64,000 nt of DNA from an uncultured delta proteobacterium (GTDB lineage: Bacteria > Desulfobacterota > RBG-13-43-22): contig CAWBOS010000001.1 in NCBI GenBank assembly GCA_963790475.1, positions 160,001 through 224,000 on the forward strand, written 5' to 3'. Positions 14,339 to 64,000 of this stretch are shown piece by piece. Made by a program: the position numbers and the translations under genes. Below the pieces are notes generated by a model. That model was not told the DNA's origin and did no database searches. It saw only the letters and a program-made list of their open reading frames with translations. Position 1 is the stretch's first letter. Every line of letters begins with the position of its first letter.

Positions 14339-16234
14339 ATGAGAGATAATGAAAAGACCAAAGACCAACTTATCAAGGAGCTAAATGATCTGCGATGGAG
14401 AGTTGTTGAACTGGAAAAGTCTGAAACCGAGCGCCGGCAGACCGAAGGGGATATTAAAAATTTAGCGAAGTTTCCCTCCGAAAACCCTAATCCTGTGCTA
14501 CGCGTAAATCAAGGGGGTATTGTCCTGTATGCGAACGAAGCCAGTAAAACCCTGTTCCGAGATCGGCAGTGTGAAGTGGGCGGCTATGCTCCTGCATTAT
14601 GGTGCAATTTATTTATTGATGCCTTCAAAGACCAGTCTCAGAGAACCGTTGATGTTCAATTGGGTGAGAAGTTTTATACGTTTGATATTACACCGATCCC
14701 CAATACTGACTATGCCAACCTTTATGGTCGTGACAACACCGAACGCAAACGAGCGGAAGATGAAAACAGGCGCAACGAGGCACGGCTGGAAAGCCTCCTG
14801 AAAATATCTCAGTATCGCGCCGACTCGACCCAAGAGCTTCTGGATTTTGCCCTGGAAGAGGCCATTGCCCTCACAAACAGCAAGATCGGCTATGTTTACT
14901 TCTATGACGAGACCAAGAAAGAGTTCATTCTCAACACTTGGTCCAAAGAAGTCATGAAGCAGTGTACCATTGCCGAGCCCCAGACTGTTTATCACCTTGA
15001 TAAGACCGGGATCTGGGGAGAGGCCGTGAGGCAGGCCAAACCGATCATTGTCAATGATTTCCAGGCGACCCATCCACTAAAAAAGGGATACCCTGAAGGC
15101 CATGCTCCCCTCTATAAGTATATGACCGTTCCCGTTTTTTCCGATGACCGCATCGTGGGAGTTGTAGGCGTGGCCAATAAGGAAACGGACTATGACTTCT
15201 CCGATGTGCGCCAACTCACCCTGCTCATGGACTCGGTCTGGAAAATATTCGAACGCAAGCAGACCGAGGAGGCACTGCGCGAAAGTGAGCAGCGCTACCG
15301 CAGTTTGTTTGAGTCGATGGACGAGGGATTCGCCCTTTGTGAGATGATCTATGACCTACAGGGCAAGCCGATAGACTTCCGTTACCTGGTCGTCAACCCC
15401 GCCTTCGGCAAACTGACGGGCCTGCCGGTTGATCAGCTCGTAGGGCGAACGGTGAAAGAAGTGATCCCAGGGATCGAGTCTTTCTGGATTGAGTCTTTCG
15501 ACAGTGTGGTGCAGAGCGGTCGGGATGAAAGGTTCAACAACCCCGTGGCGGAACTGGGGAAGGATTATGAAGCATACGCCTGGCGCTCGGATGTCGGACG
15601 ATTTGCGGTGGTCTTCAGCGACGTAACGGAGCGCAAACGGGCAGAGGAGACTCTCAAGGCCTTATCTCTCAAAGATGATCTGACCGGCTTATATAACCGC
15701 CGGGGTTTCTTTGCTTTGGCTGAGCAGGGATTGAAGGCGGCGCAACGGATGGGAAAGGAAATGTTACTTATTTATGGAGACTTGGACAATTTTAAGGGGA
15801 TAAATGATGCCATTGGTCACCAAGAAGGCGATCAGGCCTTGATTGATATATCCCATATCCTTAAAGAGACTTTTCGGGAATCAGATATTATCTCCCGCTT
15901 AGGGGGAGATGAATTTGTCATTCTGGCCATGAATAATATTGAGGACGCAGCTGAAATACTGATCAATCGTTTTGAGAAAGTTTTGAGTGACCACGATCTC
16001 CAAAGAAAACGCCCTTACAGGCTCTCCATGAGCCTGGGAATTGTCAATTTTGACCCACAAAGCCCTTGCTCCATCGATGACCTGCTTGCCCAGGCGGACA
16101 AGATGATGTATGAGAATAAACAAAAAAGACAAACCAAGAAAGATAGGATCAAAAAATGGCCCAACCTTTCTCAGGCACATTTCAAACAGCATGGATCGGG
16201 GTCAAATGGATTGTGGGCAAATCTTAAACCATGA
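14339..16234 (+). CDS. Diguanylate cyclase (PAS-GAF-PAS-GGDEF)
   Basis: ENPNPV PAS, GAF region, DDLTGLYNRR, RESD I-site, GGDEF. Confidence 0.93.
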   Translation: MRDNEKTKDQLIKELNDLRWRVVELEKSETERRQTEGDIKNLAKFPSENPNPVLRVNQGGIVLYANEASKTLFRDRQCEVGGYAPALWCNLFIDAFKDQSQRTVDVQLGEKFYTFDITPIPNTDYANLYGRDNTERKRAEDENRRNEARLESLLKISQYRADSTQELLDFALEEAIALTNSKIGYVYFYDETKKEFILNTWSKEVMKQCTIAEPQTVYHLDKTGIWGEAVRQAKPIIVNDFQATHPLKKGYPEGHAPLYKYMTVPVFSDDRIVGVVGVANKETDYDFSDVRQLTLLMDSVWKIFERKQTEEALRESEQRYRSLFESMDEGFALCEMIYDLQGKPIDFRYLVVNPAFGKLTGLPVDQLVGRTVKEVIPGIESFWIESFDSVVQSGRDERFNNPVAELGKDYEAYAWRSDVGRFAVVFSDVTERKRAEETLKALSLKDDLTGLYNRRGFFALAEQGLKAAQRMGKEMLLIYGDLDNFKGINDAIGHQEGDQALIDISHILKETFRESDIISRLGGDEFVILAMNNIEDAAEILINRFEKVLSDHDLQRKRPYRLSMSLGIVNFDPQSPCSIDDLLAQADKMMYENKQKRQTKKDRIKKWPNLSQAHFKQHGSGSNGLWANLKP

Positions 16235-60608: not shown

Positions 60609-60847
60609 ACCTTCATTATCAGTTGGAAGTTCTTGTCAATAGCTCCGGAAGCCGAATCGATCAGGCCCTGCCTGGGGCACAAAAGCCAAGTGCTAGCGGA
60701 CAGTTTTACAGCCTGAGCGGCGGTTTCACCGGCAACCCCTCCGTATTCATCCTAAAGTCCTCCAAATTTATTATCAACCAGCCGGATCATTCCATTGGGC
60801 GGAACTTTACCTTTCGAGGAAAGCCGACCCGAGGAAAAAGGAGATCT

Positions 60848-62233
60848 ATGTCATTTTCATCTTTTGCACTTCACCCCCAACTATTAAAGGCCCTTGAAGA
60901 AAAGGGTTTTCATCAGCCCACTCCGATTCAGGAACTGGCCATCCCCGCCCTGCTACAGGGCAGTGATGTCATGGCTTCGGCCGTCACGGGAAGCGGCAAG
61001 ACGGCCGCCTTTTTACTTCCCATCCTCCATCAACTGATCGGACAGCCCCGGGGAAAAACCAGGGTACTGGTTCTGGTACCCACGCGGGAACTGGCCGTGC
61101 AGATTGCCGAGCATCTGCATGATCTGGCTTTGCATACCGCGTTGAAAGGCGCCGCCGTCTACGGAGGAGTCTCACCCGTTCCGCAGGAACAGGCTTTTAG
61201 AAAGGGAGTGGATTTTGTGATTGCCACGCCCGGACGCCTCCTGGACCATATGCGCAACAAATACGCCAAACTGGAGGGGTTAAGTCATCTTATTCTTGAC
61301 GAAGCCGATCGTATGCTCGATATGGGATTTCTCCCCGACATCCGTCGTATTCTGGACGGCATTCCGAAGAACCGTCAGACCCTTTTCTTTTCGGCCACAC
61401 TTCCTCCACCGATTGTTGCCCTGGCCAGGGAGATGCTCAATAACCCGATTGCTCTCAATATCACGCCGAAACCGATACCGGCCTCACAAATCACCCATGT
61501 GGCCTATCCCGTGCCCCATGAATTAAAATCAACCCTTCTGCTCGCCCTGCTTAAACAGAGTGCTACTAAGAGCGTCCTGGCCTTTACCCGGACCAAACAC
61601 CGGGCCAACCGGCTGGCCGACTTTCTTGAAAAACACGGGGTCTCCTGTGCCCGGATACACGGCAACCGTAGTCAGAGTCAACGGACCGAGGCCCTGGCCG
61701 GATTCAAACGGGGGAGGTTCCGGGTCCTGGTGGCCACGGACATCGCCGCCCGGGGGATCGATGTGGAGGCCATTGGTCTGGTCTGCAACTTCGATGTGCC
61801 CCACCTGGCTGAAGAATACGTTCACCGGGTTGGCCGGACTGGCCGGGCCAGCGCTTCAGGGGATGCCTGCACCCTGGTTTCACCTGATGAAGAGCACACT
61901 TTCCGATCTATCGAACAGAATCTTGGACGGCGAATGCCCCGGGAGACGGTCCAGGGATTTGATTATAAGAAGAGGCCATCGGAACGTTTCGAAATCCCTC
62001 TTAACGAGCGGATTGCCGCTATCCGGACCCGGAAAGCCGGGGAACGGGCCCGCCACCAGGAAAAAGAGGAATCGAGAGGCCATAGACCAACCAGGGCGAA
62101 TGGTTCGGTGTCCAAAGAGGTCTCCCAACCCGGATTTGCCCGCGAGCACCGGGGAAACAGCACCATTTTCGGATTTTCCAAGGGGAAAGGAACGGCCTTA
62201 AGACGGCCTTCCCTGCAGGATCGATCGCGGTAG
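60848..62233 (+). CDS. rhlE: DEAD-box RNA helicase (RhlE-like)
   Basis: Q motif, TGSGKT, PTRELA, DEAD, SAT, HRVGRTGRA. Confidence 0.9.
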   Translation: MSFSSFALHPQLLKALEEKGFHQPTPIQELAIPALLQGSDVMASAVTGSGKTAAFLLPILHQLIGQPRGKTRVLVLVPTRELAVQIAEHLHDLALHTALKGAAVYGGVSPVPQEQAFRKGVDFVIATPGRLLDHMRNKYAKLEGLSHLILDEADRMLDMGFLPDIRRILDGIPKNRQTLFFSATLPPPIVALAREMLNNPIALNITPKPIPASQITHVAYPVPHELKSTLLLALLKQSATKSVLAFTRTKHRANRLADFLEKHGVSCARIHGNRSQSQRTEALAGFKRGRFRVLVATDIAARGIDVEAIGLVCNFDVPHLAEEYVHRVGRTGRASASGDACTLVSPDEEHTFRSIEQNLGRRMPRETVQGFDYKKRPSERFEIPLNERIAAIRTRKAGERARHQEKEESRGHRPTRANGSVSKEVSQPGFAREHRGNSTIFGFSKGKGTALRRPSLQDRSR

Positions 62234-62454: not shown

Positions 62455-62640
62455 ATGGATACAGAAAAGATAATGGATAATTTATTTAAGGAATTGGGGG
62501 TGGCCTTGAAGGCCATATCTACCGCCAAAACCGTAGAAGACAAAGTGGCCTACAGCGAAATTATTAAAAATTTAAGTGAATCCCTGGGAATTTTTCTGGA
62601 TTTGGCCACCACGATCATGGAAGACGAAATCGAAGACTAA
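62455..62640 (+). CDS. Small acidic hypothetical protein
   Basis: RBS AAGGAG; promoter TTGACA-16-TATAAT at 62390-62417. Confidence 0.7.
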   Translation: MDTEKIMDNLFKELGVALKAISTAKTVEDKVAYSEIIKNLSESLGIFLDLATTIMEDEIED

Positions 62641-62703
62641 CCTTATCACGATCCGTTTTAATACATTTAAGTTATGCATCAATTTAGCTTTTTGAAAACT
62701 GTT

Positions 62704-62883
62704 TTCACCGCAAAGGCGCAAAGAGCGCCAAGAGGAACTTTTATTGGCTGCCGGTGAGGGGCCGGCAATCAATACCCTTCTCTACCCACCAGGTAATTAT
62801 TTGGACGGAGTCAGAGCTGTTTTATTCAATCCCGCCTCTCACGGGATTGAACAAAAATGATTCTCTCTGCGTCCTTTGCGTCT
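62704..62883. repeat. Palindromic repeat family C, interrupted in its right arm by the IS110 element
   Basis: Aligns with 55364-55548 up to ...CTTTGCGTCT, then switches to IS sequence. Confidence 0.85.
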
Positions 62884-62946
62884 GGTTTATTGTTGTCAAG
62901 AGTTTTTTAAATATTATTAAACAAACTGGTAACTATCTTAGAGTGA

Positions 62947-63094
62947 CACCTTGCCCAACTCTGGTAATTTGAGAGTCTCAACAGAGCTCTAACCTTGCTT
63001 TATTGGGGTTAAGGTGCAAGCGGAGAGTTATTTAAGCTCTGCGAGAAGGTCGACTTAGTCGCCTTAGATGCCGCAAACGATAATCTCTCCGCTT
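62947..63094 (-). ncRNA. Predicted bridge/seek RNA (target-binding loop, then donor-binding loop)
   Basis: Two stem/internal-loop/stem modules whose loops match the target flank and the IS end. Confidence 0.72.
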
Positions 63095-63109
63095 ACACGC
63101 TAAGAAGGT

Positions 63110-64000
63110 CTAAGCAGCCAGTTTTAACGTTGCTCCTTTTGAATAATTTTCCATATATTCGTTATGATCACGCACCAAGGCAAAAATAACACCGAGAAGC
63201 TTCCGGGCAATGGCTACCAGGGCCTTGATCTTGGGCATTCCTTGATCCAGATGCCTTTGATAGGCCGTATGCATCACTCCCCCTTTTCGAACCGTATTGA
63301 TAGCGGCAAAAAAGAGGATTTTCCTAAGAAGCGACCGGCCTCTTTTGGATATATGACGATTCCCTTGGTGCCTTCCAGAACTGATTTCAAAGAGGTTCAG
63401 TCCGGCCAACTTCAGGACTTCAGCCAGCGTATGAAATTTACGAAAATCCCCGACTTCTCCAATCAGTCCGGCGGTGGTAACCTCTCCTATCCCTTTCAAG
63501 GACAGAATCGAATGACTATAGGGGATCTCGGGAAGAAGGGCCGCCATCTCCTGTTCCGCCTTCTCAATAAACTGGTCAGAAGATTCAATCTCAGAAAGAA
63601 GTTCTCGTATCTCAAAAAGAATCGCCTTGCGGCCTTCTTGAAGACCTACGGAATGGCCAGCGGCCGCATAAAGGGCCGGGGCTCGCTCTTTATCCAGCTT
63701 CCCTCGGCTAACCCGTCTCAGCGTGGCCCTCAAGGTCCCAAGACCACATTGGATAATATCTTCCGGGCACGGATAATGCCGCAACAGATATTGGGCACTG
63801 CGGGTTTTAATATTCTTCATCACTTGCAGAAACTCGGGGAAGACAATAAAGACCAAATCCTGAATCTGGTTCAAAAGGCCCGTTCGTCTTCGTATGGCTC
63901 TCTCCCTGGCATGGGTCAGTCGGCGAAGTTCAGCTGCCGCGCCTTCGGGAATGACCACGGTAAGGGCATGACCCAGCTCAATAATATCCGCAATGACTTT
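63110..64000 (-). CDS. IS110-family transposase/recombinase (N-terminal RuvC-like part outside the window)
   Basis: SLKGIG, EVGDFRKF, LAGLNLFEISSG, ISKRGRSLLR, AIARKLL; frame open to the window edge. Confidence 0.93.
   Translation of the reverse strand, partial: KVIADIIELGHALTVVIPEGAAAELRRLTHARERAIRRRTGLLNQIQDLVFIVFPEFLQVMKNIKTRSAQYLLRHYPCPEDIIQCGLGTLRATLRRVSRGKLDKERAPALYAAAGHSVGLQEGRKAILFEIRELLSEIESSDQFIEKAEQEMAALLPEIPYSHSILSLKGIGEVTTAGLIGEVGDFRKFHTLAEVLKLAGLNLFEISSGRHQGNRHISKRGRSLLRKILFFAAINTVRKGGVMHTAYQRHLDQGMPKIKALVAIARKLLGVIFALVRDHNEYMENYSKGATLKLAA

What the first reader, a model, noticed from the sequence alone, without database searches (positions are those of the whole stretch)
62875..63109. 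Readable bridge-RNA-like guide downstream of an IS110 recombinase
Seen, on the transposase strand: module 1 has an outer 10-bp stem (63018-63027/63085-63094) and an inner hairpin (63046-63065). Its loop strands are TTTGCGGC (63077-63070) and CGCAGAG (63043-63037), spelling a 7+2+5 target TTTGCGG-CT-CTGCG. The actual flank is TTTGCGT-CT (62875-62883). Module 2 (stems 62947-62958/63003-63016 and 62969-62981) has loop strand ACCAGA, complementary to the junction TCTGGT (62881-62886). An outward TTGACA lies 10 nt from the core. Known: IS110 bridge RNAs have a target loop then a donor loop around a 2-nt core (CT in IS621), and circularisation creates the promoter. Notable here: the RNA lies 3' of the gene (IS1111-like placement), and the CT strand is opposite to the transposase strand, reversed relative to IS621. 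Inference: a naturally programmed RNA-guided recombinase variant.
Basis: partly seen in the sequence, partly recalled or inferred. Interest (0 to 1): 0.88.

Follow-up and report, generated by a model that had tools for sequence, protein, structure and literature searches.

The report
Bridge-RNA-guided IS110-family insertion sequence
This is a 1.6-kb jumping gene that carries, just after its recombinase gene, a folded guide RNA whose loops spell out both its own ends and the genomic repeat it inserts into; the system is real and neatly readable but belongs to an already described kind.

Summary
Window 62884 onward is the 3' part of a 1600-bp IS110-family insertion sequence (body 62884-64481, CT at both junctions). 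It has 10 near-identical copies in the genome. Downstream of the 419-aa recombinase gene lies a ~176-nt RNA with two stem/internal-loop/hairpin modules.

The other junction ends in CT, YTGCGG and the rest of the repeat follow, and the circle junction gives TTGACA-17-TATATT. One detail was wrong: the left-donor guide is AGCAAG (62994-62999), not the GGTTAGAGCTCT stretch.

Across 25 homologous elements the stems keep pairing through compensatory changes. The donor loop is nearly invariant. Both target-loop strands change together with the flanks, and a handshake nucleotide tracks target position 7 in 19 of 21 events. In this genome all 10 insertions carry T at that position, although 23 of 45 empty sites carry the G that the guide matches.

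Verdict: a real, well-supported new member of a known kind, of modest interest.

The parts
62678..62881 (+). Left part of the ~215-bp genomic repeat that serves as target. The left target half-site (LT) TTTGCGT is at 62875-62881.
   Evidence: BLAST of the region hits about 45 repeat copies whose alignments end at 62883. An intact copy gives 51 hits, 39 of them >=170 nt. The flanks of the 10 copies are aligned.
62882..62883 (+). Core dinucleotide CT at the left junction. The second CT is at 64482-64483, outside the window.
   Evidence: CT is present at both junctions of all 10 copies. AG|CTTGCT and AAACC-AG| ends occur in the homologues whose ends lie on the contig.
62884..64000 (-). Insertion sequence body. 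It is 1598 nt and continues to 64481 beyond the window. In transposase orientation the right end lies at 62884.
   Evidence: There are 10 copies, identical except for one alignment column, and the flanks diverge exactly at these points.
62884..62899 (-). Right end of the element, ...TTGACAACAATAAACC. It holds the -35 hexamer TTGACA (62899->62894) and the right-donor sequence GGT... that the donor loop reads.
   Evidence: From. Joined to the left end, it gives TTGACA-17-TATATT. The same arrangement appears in 19 of 21 distinct reconstructed junctions.
62929..63105 (-). Bridge/seek RNA of about 176 nt. An outer stem (63096-63105 with 62936-62945) encloses the two modules.
   Evidence: Covariance model R1 scores 182.6 bits, E 4.6e-43. 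The structure counts are and the independent RNAalifold consensus.
63018..63094 (-). Module 1, the target-binding loop. The outer stem is 63080-63094 with 63018-63031 and the inner hairpin is 63046-63065.
   Evidence: Helices 2-4 are 95-99% paired, with 16 of 22 pairs changed on both sides.
63066..63079 (-). 5' strand of the target loop, the left target guide. UUUGCGG-C (63077->63070) has the same sense as LT+C, so it pairs with the strand opposite the CT strand.
   Evidence: It is hypervariable between lineages and tracks the flank after the right end. The longest shared run with the cognate flank averages 5.84 against 3.20 for non-cognate flanks.
63032..63045 (-). 3' strand of the target loop. 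It is the right target guide CGCAG, then AG (pairs with the CT core), then CUU (handshake guide matching the donor's ...AAG).
   Evidence: Identity to the 6 nt before AG|CTTGCT averages 4.7 of 6 for cognate pairs against 1.92 for non-cognate pairs. The nucleotide after AG is C in 29 of the 30 loci tallied and T in one.
62946..63017 (-). Module 2, the donor-binding loop. The outer stem is 63003-63017 with 62946-62958 and the inner hairpin is 62972-62990.
   Evidence: Helices 5-7 are 84-98% paired, with 9 of 19 pairs changed on both sides.
62991..63002 (-). 5' strand of the donor loop. The left donor guide AGCAAG (62999->62994) has the same sense as the element end ...ATAGCAAG-CT.
   Evidence: AGCAAG is invariant in 26 of 26 aligned RNAs. 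The end CTTGCTAT is conserved in the homologues.
62959..62971 (-). 3' strand of the donor loop. It reads U-ACC-AG-AG: the right donor guide plus the core pair, followed by the handshake nucleotides A and G.
   Evidence: ACCAG is invariant. The nucleotide after ACCAG pairs with target position 7 in 19 of 21 distinct events, against 44% (183 of 420) for non-cognate pairs.
63110..64000 (-). IS110-family DEDD/serine recombinase gene. The CDS is 63110-64369 and encodes 419 aa; the window holds the C-terminal 296 codons.
   Evidence: PF01548 and PF02371 match. NF033542, 'IS110 family RNA-guided transposase', scores 216 bits against a cut-off of 140. IS621 structures are hit at E 4e-8.

Best explanation
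The region is the 3' non-coding end of an active IS110-family insertion sequence and encodes its bridge RNA (also called seekRNA).

Shown from sequence:
- The element is 1598 nt plus one CT.
- It sits between LT-CT and CT-RT with no other duplication.
- It has 10 near-identical copies, most of them at the same point of a ~215-bp genomic repeat.

Inferred mechanism, by analogy with IS621 and the IS1111-type elements:
1. Excision joins the two ends into a circle. The junction ...TTGACA-ACAATAAACC-AG-CTTGC-TATATT creates a sigma-70-type promoter that reads through the recombinase gene into the RNA.
2. The RNA folds into two stem/internal-loop/hairpin modules.
3. In module 1 the 5' strand (UUUGCGG-C) pairs with the strand opposite the CT strand at the left half-site. 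The 3' strand (CGCAG-AG) pairs with the CT strand at the core and the right half-site.
4. In module 2, AGCAAG and ACC-AG do the same on the joined element ends.
5. Two recombinase dimers, one on each loop, exchange strands at the CT core.
6. The nucleotides just 3' of each core-pairing segment (CUU in module 1, A in module 2) act as handshake guides. They pair with the partner DNA only after top-strand exchange.

The handshake step explains the site choice. Every insertion here is at a T7 site. The G7 sites match the left target guide, but their G7 would pair with module 1's own handshake C before exchange and could not pair with module 2's handshake A after it.
For: Boundaries and copies:
- BLAST finds 10 full-length copies.
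- The aligned copies differ at one column only, with flanks diverging at TTTGCGT-CT| and |CT-YTGCGG.
- All 10 recombinase genes are intact at 100% identity.

Protein:
- PF01548 plus PF02371 match, and NF033542 scores 216 bits against a cut-off of 140.
- In the printed alignment to IS621, E76, D119, D122 and S331 (my hand count) fall on the catalytic E60, D102, D105 and S241 named in PMC11208158.

RNA structure:
- The fold has z -4.9.
- On 26 sequences, 91.9% of 1220 cells pair, against 85.7 +/- 0.4 in shuffles (0 of 500) and 36-48% when the partners are slid.
- 31 of 50 pairs change on both sides, against 15.3 +/- 2.1 in shuffles (0 of 500).
- RNAalifold independently returns the same two open-loop modules: 39 pairs, 26 with compensatory changes.

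Guides:
- There are 24 distinct guide pairs.
- The 5' strand shares a run of at least 6 nt with its own flank in 12 of 19 lineages, against 2.6% of 342 non-cognate pairs.
- The 3' strand matches at least 5 of the 6 nt before the core in 11 of 20 lineages, against 4.2% of 380 non-cognate pairs.

Handshake:
- 19 of 21 events pair at position 7, against 183 of 420 non-cognate pairs. No event (0 of 21) has G at position 7.
- In this genome the occupied sites are T in 10 of 10. The 45 empty sites are G 23, C 12, A 6, T 4. Fisher p = 3.4e-8.

Junction promoter:
- TTGAC[AT]-17-TAT[AG]TT is found in 19 of 21 reconstructed junctions.

One insertion (the C6 copy at 14550) lies outside the repeat yet has the same LT and a wobble-compatible RT.

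The published mechanism was read in PMC11208160, PMC11208158 and PMC13626964 (passages) and PMC11187229 (sections 6, 9, 12, 13).
Against: - There is no direct evidence that the RNA is made, processed or bound. The only RNA-library data are short metatranscriptome contigs of relatives, which may be DNA carry-over.
- No circle junction was observed.
- The donor loop and the element ends are both invariant, so their pairing rests on complementarity (6 nt, and 3 nt plus the core) without covariation.
- The left target guide carries G at position 7, where all 10 used sites have T. In this lineage the guide does not match its sites perfectly.
- The unconstrained minimum-energy fold of this lineage closes the target loop by pairing the two guide strands: -62.2 kcal/mol against -55.2 with the loops held open.
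- In 7 of 19 lineages the 5' guide shares only 4-5 consecutive nt with the one flank examined.
- Register offsets of 1-2 nt occur in the L013-16, L017/19 and L031-40 lineages.
- No promoter or terminator of its own was found on the RNA strand.
Confidence: 0.9

Rival explanations
1. Only module 1 works as a guide, as a short seekRNA of the IS1111 type. Module 2 would be a structural or protein-binding scaffold, and the element ends would be recognised by the protein rather than by RNA pairing.
For: For IS1111-type elements the abundant co-purified RNA was a short 82-96-nt seekRNA described with target matches only (PMC11187229 section 9). Here the donor loop and the ends are invariant, so their pairing has no covariation support.
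Against: The module-2 loop strands carry AGCAAG and ACC-AG exactly where module 1 carries its guides, and they match both element ends around the same core. The nucleotide after ACCAG covaries with target position 7 in 19 of 21 events. That is expected only if this strand contacts DNA during strand exchange, as in IS621 (PMC11208158).
Confidence: 0.05
2. The conserved 3' structure is a cis-acting element, such as an mRNA 3' stabiliser, a terminator or a DNA-level end-binding site. The loop/flank similarity would come from bits of target captured into the element.
For: This target consists of tandem 9-mers, so short matches to it are easy to find in this one lineage. The window sequence alone cannot exclude captured target DNA.
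Against: In 24 lineages with unrelated targets the two loop strands change with their own flanks, while the stems are kept by compensatory changes. The two strands match opposite DNA strands on either side of the core. No terminator-like site was found.
Confidence: 0.03
3. The element is a relic. The RNA was a guide once, but the copies no longer move.
For: No circle and no transcript were observed here. The left target guide mismatches its sites at position 7.
Against: All 10 copies have intact 419-aa genes at 100% identity and differ at one alignment column, while their surrounding repeat copies are about 80% alike. That points to recent spread.
Confidence: 0.05

Closest known systems
IS621 bridge RNA system (IS110 group; Durrant et al. 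2024, PMC11208160; Hiraizumi et al. 2024/2026, PMC11208158, PMC13626964)
   Same: - A DEDD RuvC-like domain plus a Tnp domain with a catalytic serine.
- A CT core at both junctions.
- An RNA with the target loop 5' of the donor loop.
- In each loop, the 5' strand pairs with the strand opposite CT and the 3' strand pairs with the CT strand plus the core.
- Handshake nucleotides 3' of the core-pairing segment.
- A genomic repeat as target.
- A promoter formed at the circle junction.
   Different: - The RNA lies downstream of the gene, in the right end, not upstream.
- The body of the element is inverted relative to the CT-defined top strand, so the core reads AG in transposase orientation.
- The recombinase is 419 aa, whereas the IS621 chain is 328 residues, and is only distantly similar (E 4e-8).
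- The RNA finds no Rfam family.
IS1111-type elements with a seekRNA / right-end bridge RNA (ISEc11, ISPa11, ISKpn4; Siddiquee et al. 2024, PMC11187229)
   Same: - The long non-coding region and the guide RNA are downstream of the gene.
- The match to the top strand (transposase orientation) lies 5' of the bottom-strand match.
- Each lineage has its own target.
- The circle junction forms a promoter.
   Different: - There are no subterminal inverted repeats of 7-17 bp. The best inverted match between the ends is 5-7 nt, no better than shuffles.
- The recombinase is 419 aa, not 330-350 aa.
- The motif reads GLNLFEISSG, with L where the GL-P----SG consensus has P (read).
- In the plasmid collection, full-length matches are to ~410-aa 'IS110 family' genes of Bacillota and Streptomyces. 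Many listed Klebsiella and E. coli plasmid copies matched over the C-terminal part only.
ISPpu9 of Pseudomonas putida (IS110 group; PMC12288879)
   Same: It inserts into a genomic repeat (REP), recombines at an AG dinucleotide in transposase orientation and forms circles.
   Different: Its bridge RNA is upstream. Its downstream Ssr9 RNA is dispensable and is not a guide. No junction promoter is formed (PMC12288879 abstract and passages).

Membership tests
IS110-family RNA-guided (bridge/seek RNA) recombinase elements | N-terminal DEDD RuvC-like domain and C-terminal Tnp domain with a catalytic Ser in an SG motif | tested here: met
   PF01548 matches residues 21-178 and PF02371 matches 287-371. 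NF033542 scores 216 bits against a cut-off of 140. In the alignment to IS621, E76, D119, D122 and S331-G332 (hand count) align with the catalytic residues named in PMC11208158. The first D was not aligned to IS621; it is covered only by the Pfam match.
IS110-family RNA-guided (bridge/seek RNA) recombinase elements | Site-specific insertion with a 2-nt core repeated at both junctions and no other target duplication | tested here: met
   All 10 copies read LT-CT|element|CT-RT. Uninterrupted sites read LT-CT-RT.
IS110-family RNA-guided (bridge/seek RNA) recombinase elements | Non-coding RNA with two internal loops, each carrying two guide strands that match opposite strands of the target or the donor around the core | tested here: met
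   The structure is supported.
IS110-family RNA-guided (bridge/seek RNA) recombinase elements | Target-loop guides covary with the target across relatives | tested here: met
   For the 5' guide, 12 of 19 cognate pairs share a run of at least 6 nt, against 2.6% of 342 non-cognate pairs. For the 3' guide, 11 of 20 match at least 5 of 6 nt, against 4.2% of 380.
IS110-family RNA-guided (bridge/seek RNA) recombinase elements | Handshake guides pairing with positions 6-7 of the partner DNA after strand exchange | tested here: met
   Position 7 pairs in 19 of 21 events but position 6 in only 7 of 21. The module-1 handshake C (U in one of the 30 loci tallied) faces the invariant donor G7.
IS110-family RNA-guided (bridge/seek RNA) recombinase elements | Circular intermediate whose junction forms a promoter | tested here: inconclusive
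   The joined ends give TTGACA-17-TATATT here and in 19 of 21 junctions. No circle was observed, because that needs PCR or reads.
IS110-family RNA-guided (bridge/seek RNA) recombinase elements | The RNA is expressed and bound by the recombinase | not testable with these tools
   The only data are metatranscriptome contigs of relatives over the RNA region, which do not prove transcription.
IS1111 group (sensu Partridge & Hall / Siddiquee et al.) | Long non-coding region and guide RNA downstream of the gene, with the top-strand match 5' of the bottom-strand match | tested here: met
   The RNA lies at 63105->62929, after the stop codon at 63110-63112. The 5' guide pairs with the transposase-sense strand. 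The criterion is from PMC11187229 sections 6 and 9.
IS1111 group (sensu Partridge & Hall / Siddiquee et al.) | Subterminal inverted repeats of 7-17 bp | tested here: not met
   The best exact inverted match between the 80-nt ends is 5-7 nt in 15 lineages. Shuffles average 5.9-6.5 with maxima of 9-11. Only a short TATT(G) is shared at similar offsets.
IS1111 group (sensu Partridge & Hall / Siddiquee et al.) | Compact transposase of 330-350 aa related to the IS1111 transposase over its full length | tested here: not met
   The protein is 419 aa. The listed matches covering at least 80% of it are to ~400-430-aa genes of other phyla. No named IS1111 reference protein was available for direct comparison.
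IS110 group (sensu Siddiquee et al.) | Guide RNA / long non-coding region upstream of the gene | tested here: not met
   The left end is only 112 nt (64370-64481) and holds a 5'-UTR hairpin, with no two-loop RNA. R1 hits only the 3' side. PMC11187229 section 6 notes that some IS110-type elements have a 3' non-coding region.
IS110 group (sensu Siddiquee et al.) | No or only short imperfect terminal repeats; transposase of 395-455 aa in the IS110-proper subgroup | tested here: met
   One search shows no significant inverted repeats. One search gives 419 aa.

The most novel reading that the evidence does not exclude
This element and its 24 guide lineages (from Nitrospirota, Desulfobacterota-like and other metagenome genomes) may form an uncharacterised subfamily. 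It would combine an IS110-proper-like long recombinase and ends without subterminal inverted repeats with the IS1111-type 3' bridge RNA and inverted body orientation. That makes it a candidate intermediate for the RNA having moved between the two ends of the element. In this subfamily, natural site choice at target position 7 follows the handshake rule and overrides complementarity to the left target guide: 10 of 10 insertions are at T7, while the 23 G7 sites that match the guide are all empty.
Probability: 0.3. Interest if true: 0.45.

Novelty: new member of a known kind. Interest (0 to 1): 0.3.

Why it matters
This is a clean natural example of a bridge-RNA recombinase that can be read end to end from sequence: both junctions, both loops, the handshake nucleotides and the junction promoter.

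It comes with a ready-made comparative set of 24 naturally reprogrammed guide pairs on one conserved ~176-nt scaffold. That set is useful raw material for anyone mining compact bridge recombinases.

It also shows in a wild genome that sites are chosen by the handshake rule established in vitro for IS621. The T7 sites are used. The G7 sites are not, although they match the left target guide perfectly.

It does not change the current picture of IS110/IS1111 biology.

Tried and rejected
- **Rfam.** Nothing reached a gathering score. The four chance-level hits (E 0.37-5.5) were ignored.
- **Own promoter or terminator for the RNA.** No site was found on the minus strand. The two plus-strand promoter-like sites are at the chance level (2.1 expected) and there was no terminator-like site, so nothing was concluded.
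- **A 3-nt core with a donor-derived T at position 7.** I considered this to explain T7 and rejected it. The base before CT at the other junction is G in every lineage whatever the target, so it comes from the donor and T7 must come from the target.
- **Anchored guide/flank identity.** This gave erratic values because the register shifts by 1-2 nt in some lineages. I replaced it with the longest shared run and non-cognate controls.
- **Model R1 on distant relatives.** It found nothing in L045-L048 (Bacillota and Streptomyces plasmid relatives at 24-36% protein identity) or in L044. It gave only truncated hits at the contig ends of L004 and L024. This says nothing about whether those elements have a different RNA.
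- **Plasmid tblastn.** No named IS closer than 36% identity was found, so the element could not be placed in a named ISfinder group. No tree was built, for lack of reference IS1111 and IS110 proteins from a tool.
- **RNA libraries.** No run held half of the sampled words.
  - Contigs of four metatranscriptomes at 90-99% likeness cover parts of the stretch.
  - One 194-nt contig lies on 62935-63109 and one 479-nt contig on 62864-63087.
  - These come from relatives and may be DNA. Parts without cover mean nothing.
- **Supplements.** The supplementary tables of PMC11208160 and PMC11187229 (lists of predicted bridge RNAs and targets) could not be seen. They may already list this clade.
Full report
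**What is there.** The window is G000:C1:160001-224000. On the minus strand, an open frame runs from beyond the window end to a stop at 63110-63112. With the contig sequence beyond 64000 the gene is 63110-64369 and encodes 419 aa.
- It carries PF01548 (DEDD_Tnp_IS110, residues 21-178) and PF02371 (residues 287-371).
- It passes NCBIfam NF033542, 'IS110 family RNA-guided transposase', at 216 bits against a cut-off of 140.
- Its only solved relatives by sequence are the IS621 (E 4e-8) and ISCro4 transposases.
- Counting by hand on the alignment, E76, D119, D122 and S331 fall on the IS621 residues that PMC11208158 names as catalytic (E60, D102, D105, S241).

**Boundaries.** BLAST of 62600-64700 against the genome gives 56 hits. 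Ten are full-length copies and the rest fall on a repeat whose alignments end at 62883. Aligning the ten copies with their flanks shows they are identical except at one column.
- The left flanks diverge before ...T(T/C)TGCGT-CT| and the right flanks after |CT-YTGCGG.
- The body is therefore 62884-64481 (1598 nt), with CT at 62882-62883 and again at 64482-64483.
- Eight copies lie in full-length copies of a ~215-bp repeat and one in a short, divergent piece.
- One copy (C6:14550) lies outside the repeat at a site that still reads TTTGCGT-CT-CTGTG.
- All ten genes are intact and 100% identical.
- An intact repeat copy finds 51 places, 39 of them >=170 nt, at a median 80% identity.

Every coordinate given is correct. 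The minus strand 63109-62884 folds at -67.9 kcal/mol, z -4.9, with 0 of 200 shuffles as good.

The far-end predictions are met. The element ends in ...ATAGCAAG-CT, followed by YTGCGG and the rest of the repeat. Joined in a circle, the minus strand reads TTGACA, then 17 nt (ACAATAAACC-AG-CTTGC), then TATATT. One prediction fails: the end does not match GGTTAGAGCTCT, which is the inner hairpin of module 2. The left-donor guide is AGCAAG at 62994-62999.

**Relatives.** A scan of one genome per species found 43 loci encoding relatives. Forty-two are 46-67% identical and one (L044) is 26% identical. All come from metagenome-assembled genomes, labelled Nitrospirota, delta-proteobacteria/Desulfobacterales, Syntrophobacteraceae and others.

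The 330 nt after each stop codon align over the whole RNA. For structure counts I aligned this element with 25 of the 43 loci (A1). The 18 dropped rows were:
- L004 and L024, where the contig ends inside the RNA;
- L044, which is too distant;
- fifteen further copies from metagenome genomes already represented in A1: L007-L011, L014-L016, L018, L019, L032, L034, L035, L037 and L040.

**Structure.** I derived a structure from this sequence with the four loop strands held open. It has 50 pairs in 7 helices.
- On A1, 91.9% of 1220 cells pair. Shuffles give 85.7 +/- 0.4 (0 of 500 reach the observed value) and sliding the partners gives 36-48%.
- 31 pairs change on both sides, against 15.3 +/- 2.1 in shuffles (0 of 500).
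- Because that structure came from one of the sequences, I also ran RNAalifold. It returns the same layout on its own: two modules, each an outer stem, an open internal loop and an inner hairpin. It has 39 pairs, 26 with compensatory changes.
- Model R1, built from A1, scores this copy at 182.6 bits over 63105-62929.

**Guides.** Module 2 is almost invariant (AAGCAAG... and ...UACCAG), and so are the element ends. These are AG|CTTGCTAT in every locus whose left end is on the contig and ...AAACC-AG| at the right end.

The two loop strands of module 1 are hypervariable, with 24 distinct pairs.
- The 5' strand has the sense of the CT-strand left half-site. Examples: CCCUCCCC against flank GGGAGGGG in L006, UUCGCGCC against GCGCGAA in L012, UUGAAUCC against GATTCAA in L025, and CCUAACCC against GGTTAGG in L041.
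- The longest run shared with the lineage's own flank averages 5.84 nt. It is at least 6 in 12 of 19 lineages and only 4-5 in the other 7.
- For 342 non-cognate pairs the average is 3.20, with 2.6% at 6 or more.
- The 3' strand reads right half-site, then AG, then C(U/A/G/C)U in transposase sense.
- Over the 6 nt before AG it matches its own flank at 4.7 of 6 on average (at least 5 in 11 of 20 lineages), against 1.92 for 380 non-cognate pairs (4.2% at 5 or more).
- Some non-cognate lineages have related targets, which inflates the control.

**Handshake and site choice.** In IS621 the two nucleotides 3' of each core-pairing segment pair with positions 6-7 of the partner DNA after top-strand exchange. 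Pairing with the loop's own DNA before exchange blocks the reaction (PMC11208158, section 'Handshake base pairing'; PMC13626964, abstract and passages).

Here the nucleotide after ACCAG in module 2 pairs with target position 7 in 19 of 21 distinct events, against 183 of 420 (44%) for non-cognate pairs. The next nucleotide pairs in only 7 of 21. Position 7 is C in 12 events, T in 8, A in 1 and never G. G is the donor's own position 7, and the module-1 nucleotide that faces it is C in 29 of the 30 loci tallied and U in one.

In this genome there are 45 uninterrupted sites of the form T(C/T)TGCG-N-CT-(C/T)TGCG. N is G in 23, C in 12, A in 6 and T in 4. All ten occupied sites have T (Fisher p = 3.4e-8).

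The left target guide reads G at that position. The sites that match it perfectly are therefore the unused ones, and the sites that fit the handshake A are the used ones. A donor-derived T is excluded: the base before CT at the other junction is G in every lineage regardless of target. That the handshake rule causes this bias is my inference from the published IS621 work, not a result obtained here.

**Promoter and expression.** The reconstructed junction gives TTGAC(A/T)-17-TAT(A/G)TT in 19 of 21 distinct cases. No promoter-like site on the RNA strand and no terminator was found inside the element. Transcription of the RNA is therefore most simply read-through from the junction promoter or from outside, as described for this family (PMC12288879 introduction; PMC13626964). 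That too is inference.

Metatranscriptome contigs of relatives lie on 62935-63109 (194-nt contig, 11 differences) and 62864-63087 (479-nt contig, 5 differences). They show only that such sequence is present in RNA libraries.

**Comparison with what is known.** At the RNA level the layout is that of IS621: target loop, then donor loop, with the 5' strands on the strand opposite CT, the 3' strands on the CT strand plus core, and handshake nucleotides.

- Durrant et al. predict a bridge RNA in the right end for the IS1111 group, finding one in 93% of IS1111 elements (PMC11208160 passages).
- Siddiquee et al. find the seekRNA downstream, with the top-strand match 5' of the bottom-strand match, and call this order reversed relative to IS110-type elements (PMC11187229 abstract, sections 9 and 12).
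- ISPpu9 likewise recombines at AG in transposase orientation (PMC12288879).

Yet the element fails two defining features of the IS1111 group. It has no subterminal inverted repeats beyond chance, and its recombinase is 419 aa, not 330-350 aa. In the plasmid collection, the matches covering most of its length are to ~410-aa 'IS110 family' genes of Bacillota and Streptomyces. PMC11187229 section 6 notes that some IS110-type elements have a 3' non-coding region, so even this combination is acknowledged in print. I found no experimental treatment of it in my two literature searches.

**Verdict.** The feature is real. The system is a new member of a known kind. The most interesting residue is the natural T7-over-G7 site choice, together with the mixed IS110/IS1111 character of the clade.

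Noticed in passing
window 62678-62883 and contig beyond the window (64484-~64520); about 39-51 copies genome-wide: This is a ~215-bp non-coding repeat family at a median 80% identity. Its two ends are inverted arrays of 9-mers (YTTTGCGNC...GGTG) and it has two internal hairpins. Both ends carry target-like sites, but the insertion sequence uses only one end type. It looks like a MITE- or REPIN-like element, and no transposase is assigned to it.
   Followed up: partly
L001 2370-2450 (window-equivalent 64370-64450, beyond the window): The left-end 5' UTR holds a long-range inverted repeat, GGCTATACTC...GAGTATAGCC. It would sequester the GGAG ribosome-binding site and abut the start codon. It is conserved in the homologues and is probably a translational brake on the recombinase.
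   Followed up: no
window 63032-63079: In this lineage the two target-loop strands are complementary to each other, because the target half-sites are tandem repeats. The unconstrained fold therefore closes the loop (-62.2 against -55.2 kcal/mol). The consensus fold of the family keeps the loop open.
   Followed up: partly
L017, L019 versus L018: Copies of one lineage sit at targets whose match to the 5' guide is shifted by 2 nt relative to the element end (TCACAGACC-CT against TCACAGA-CT). L017 and L019 also share identical upstream flanks, so they are probably one insertion inside a duplicated segment.
   Followed up: no
L013-L016: This lineage is 1875 nt long, about 270 nt longer than the others. 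Three of its four insertions have targets that differ from the 5' guide at two adjacent positions (ACCTTCTA against guide ACCUGAUA).
   Followed up: no
G000:C1:240541-240996, C13:479327-479785, C12:172307-172642, C12:1483740-1484075: Four weak matches (29% identity over the C-terminal domain; open frames of 381, 381, 160 and 164 aa) point to at least one other, distant IS110-family element in the same genome.
   Followed up: no
L002 (CP070770.1) downstream of the RNA: The right end and flank of the closest relative (67% identity) read as a run of N in the held copy, so its target could be checked on the left side only.
   Followed up: no
window 60623-62233 and 62455-62640: Upstream of the repeat lie a DEAD-box-helicase-like open frame (motifs visible in the translation; no family search was run) and a 61-aa open frame. 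Neither appears connected with the element.
   Followed up: no
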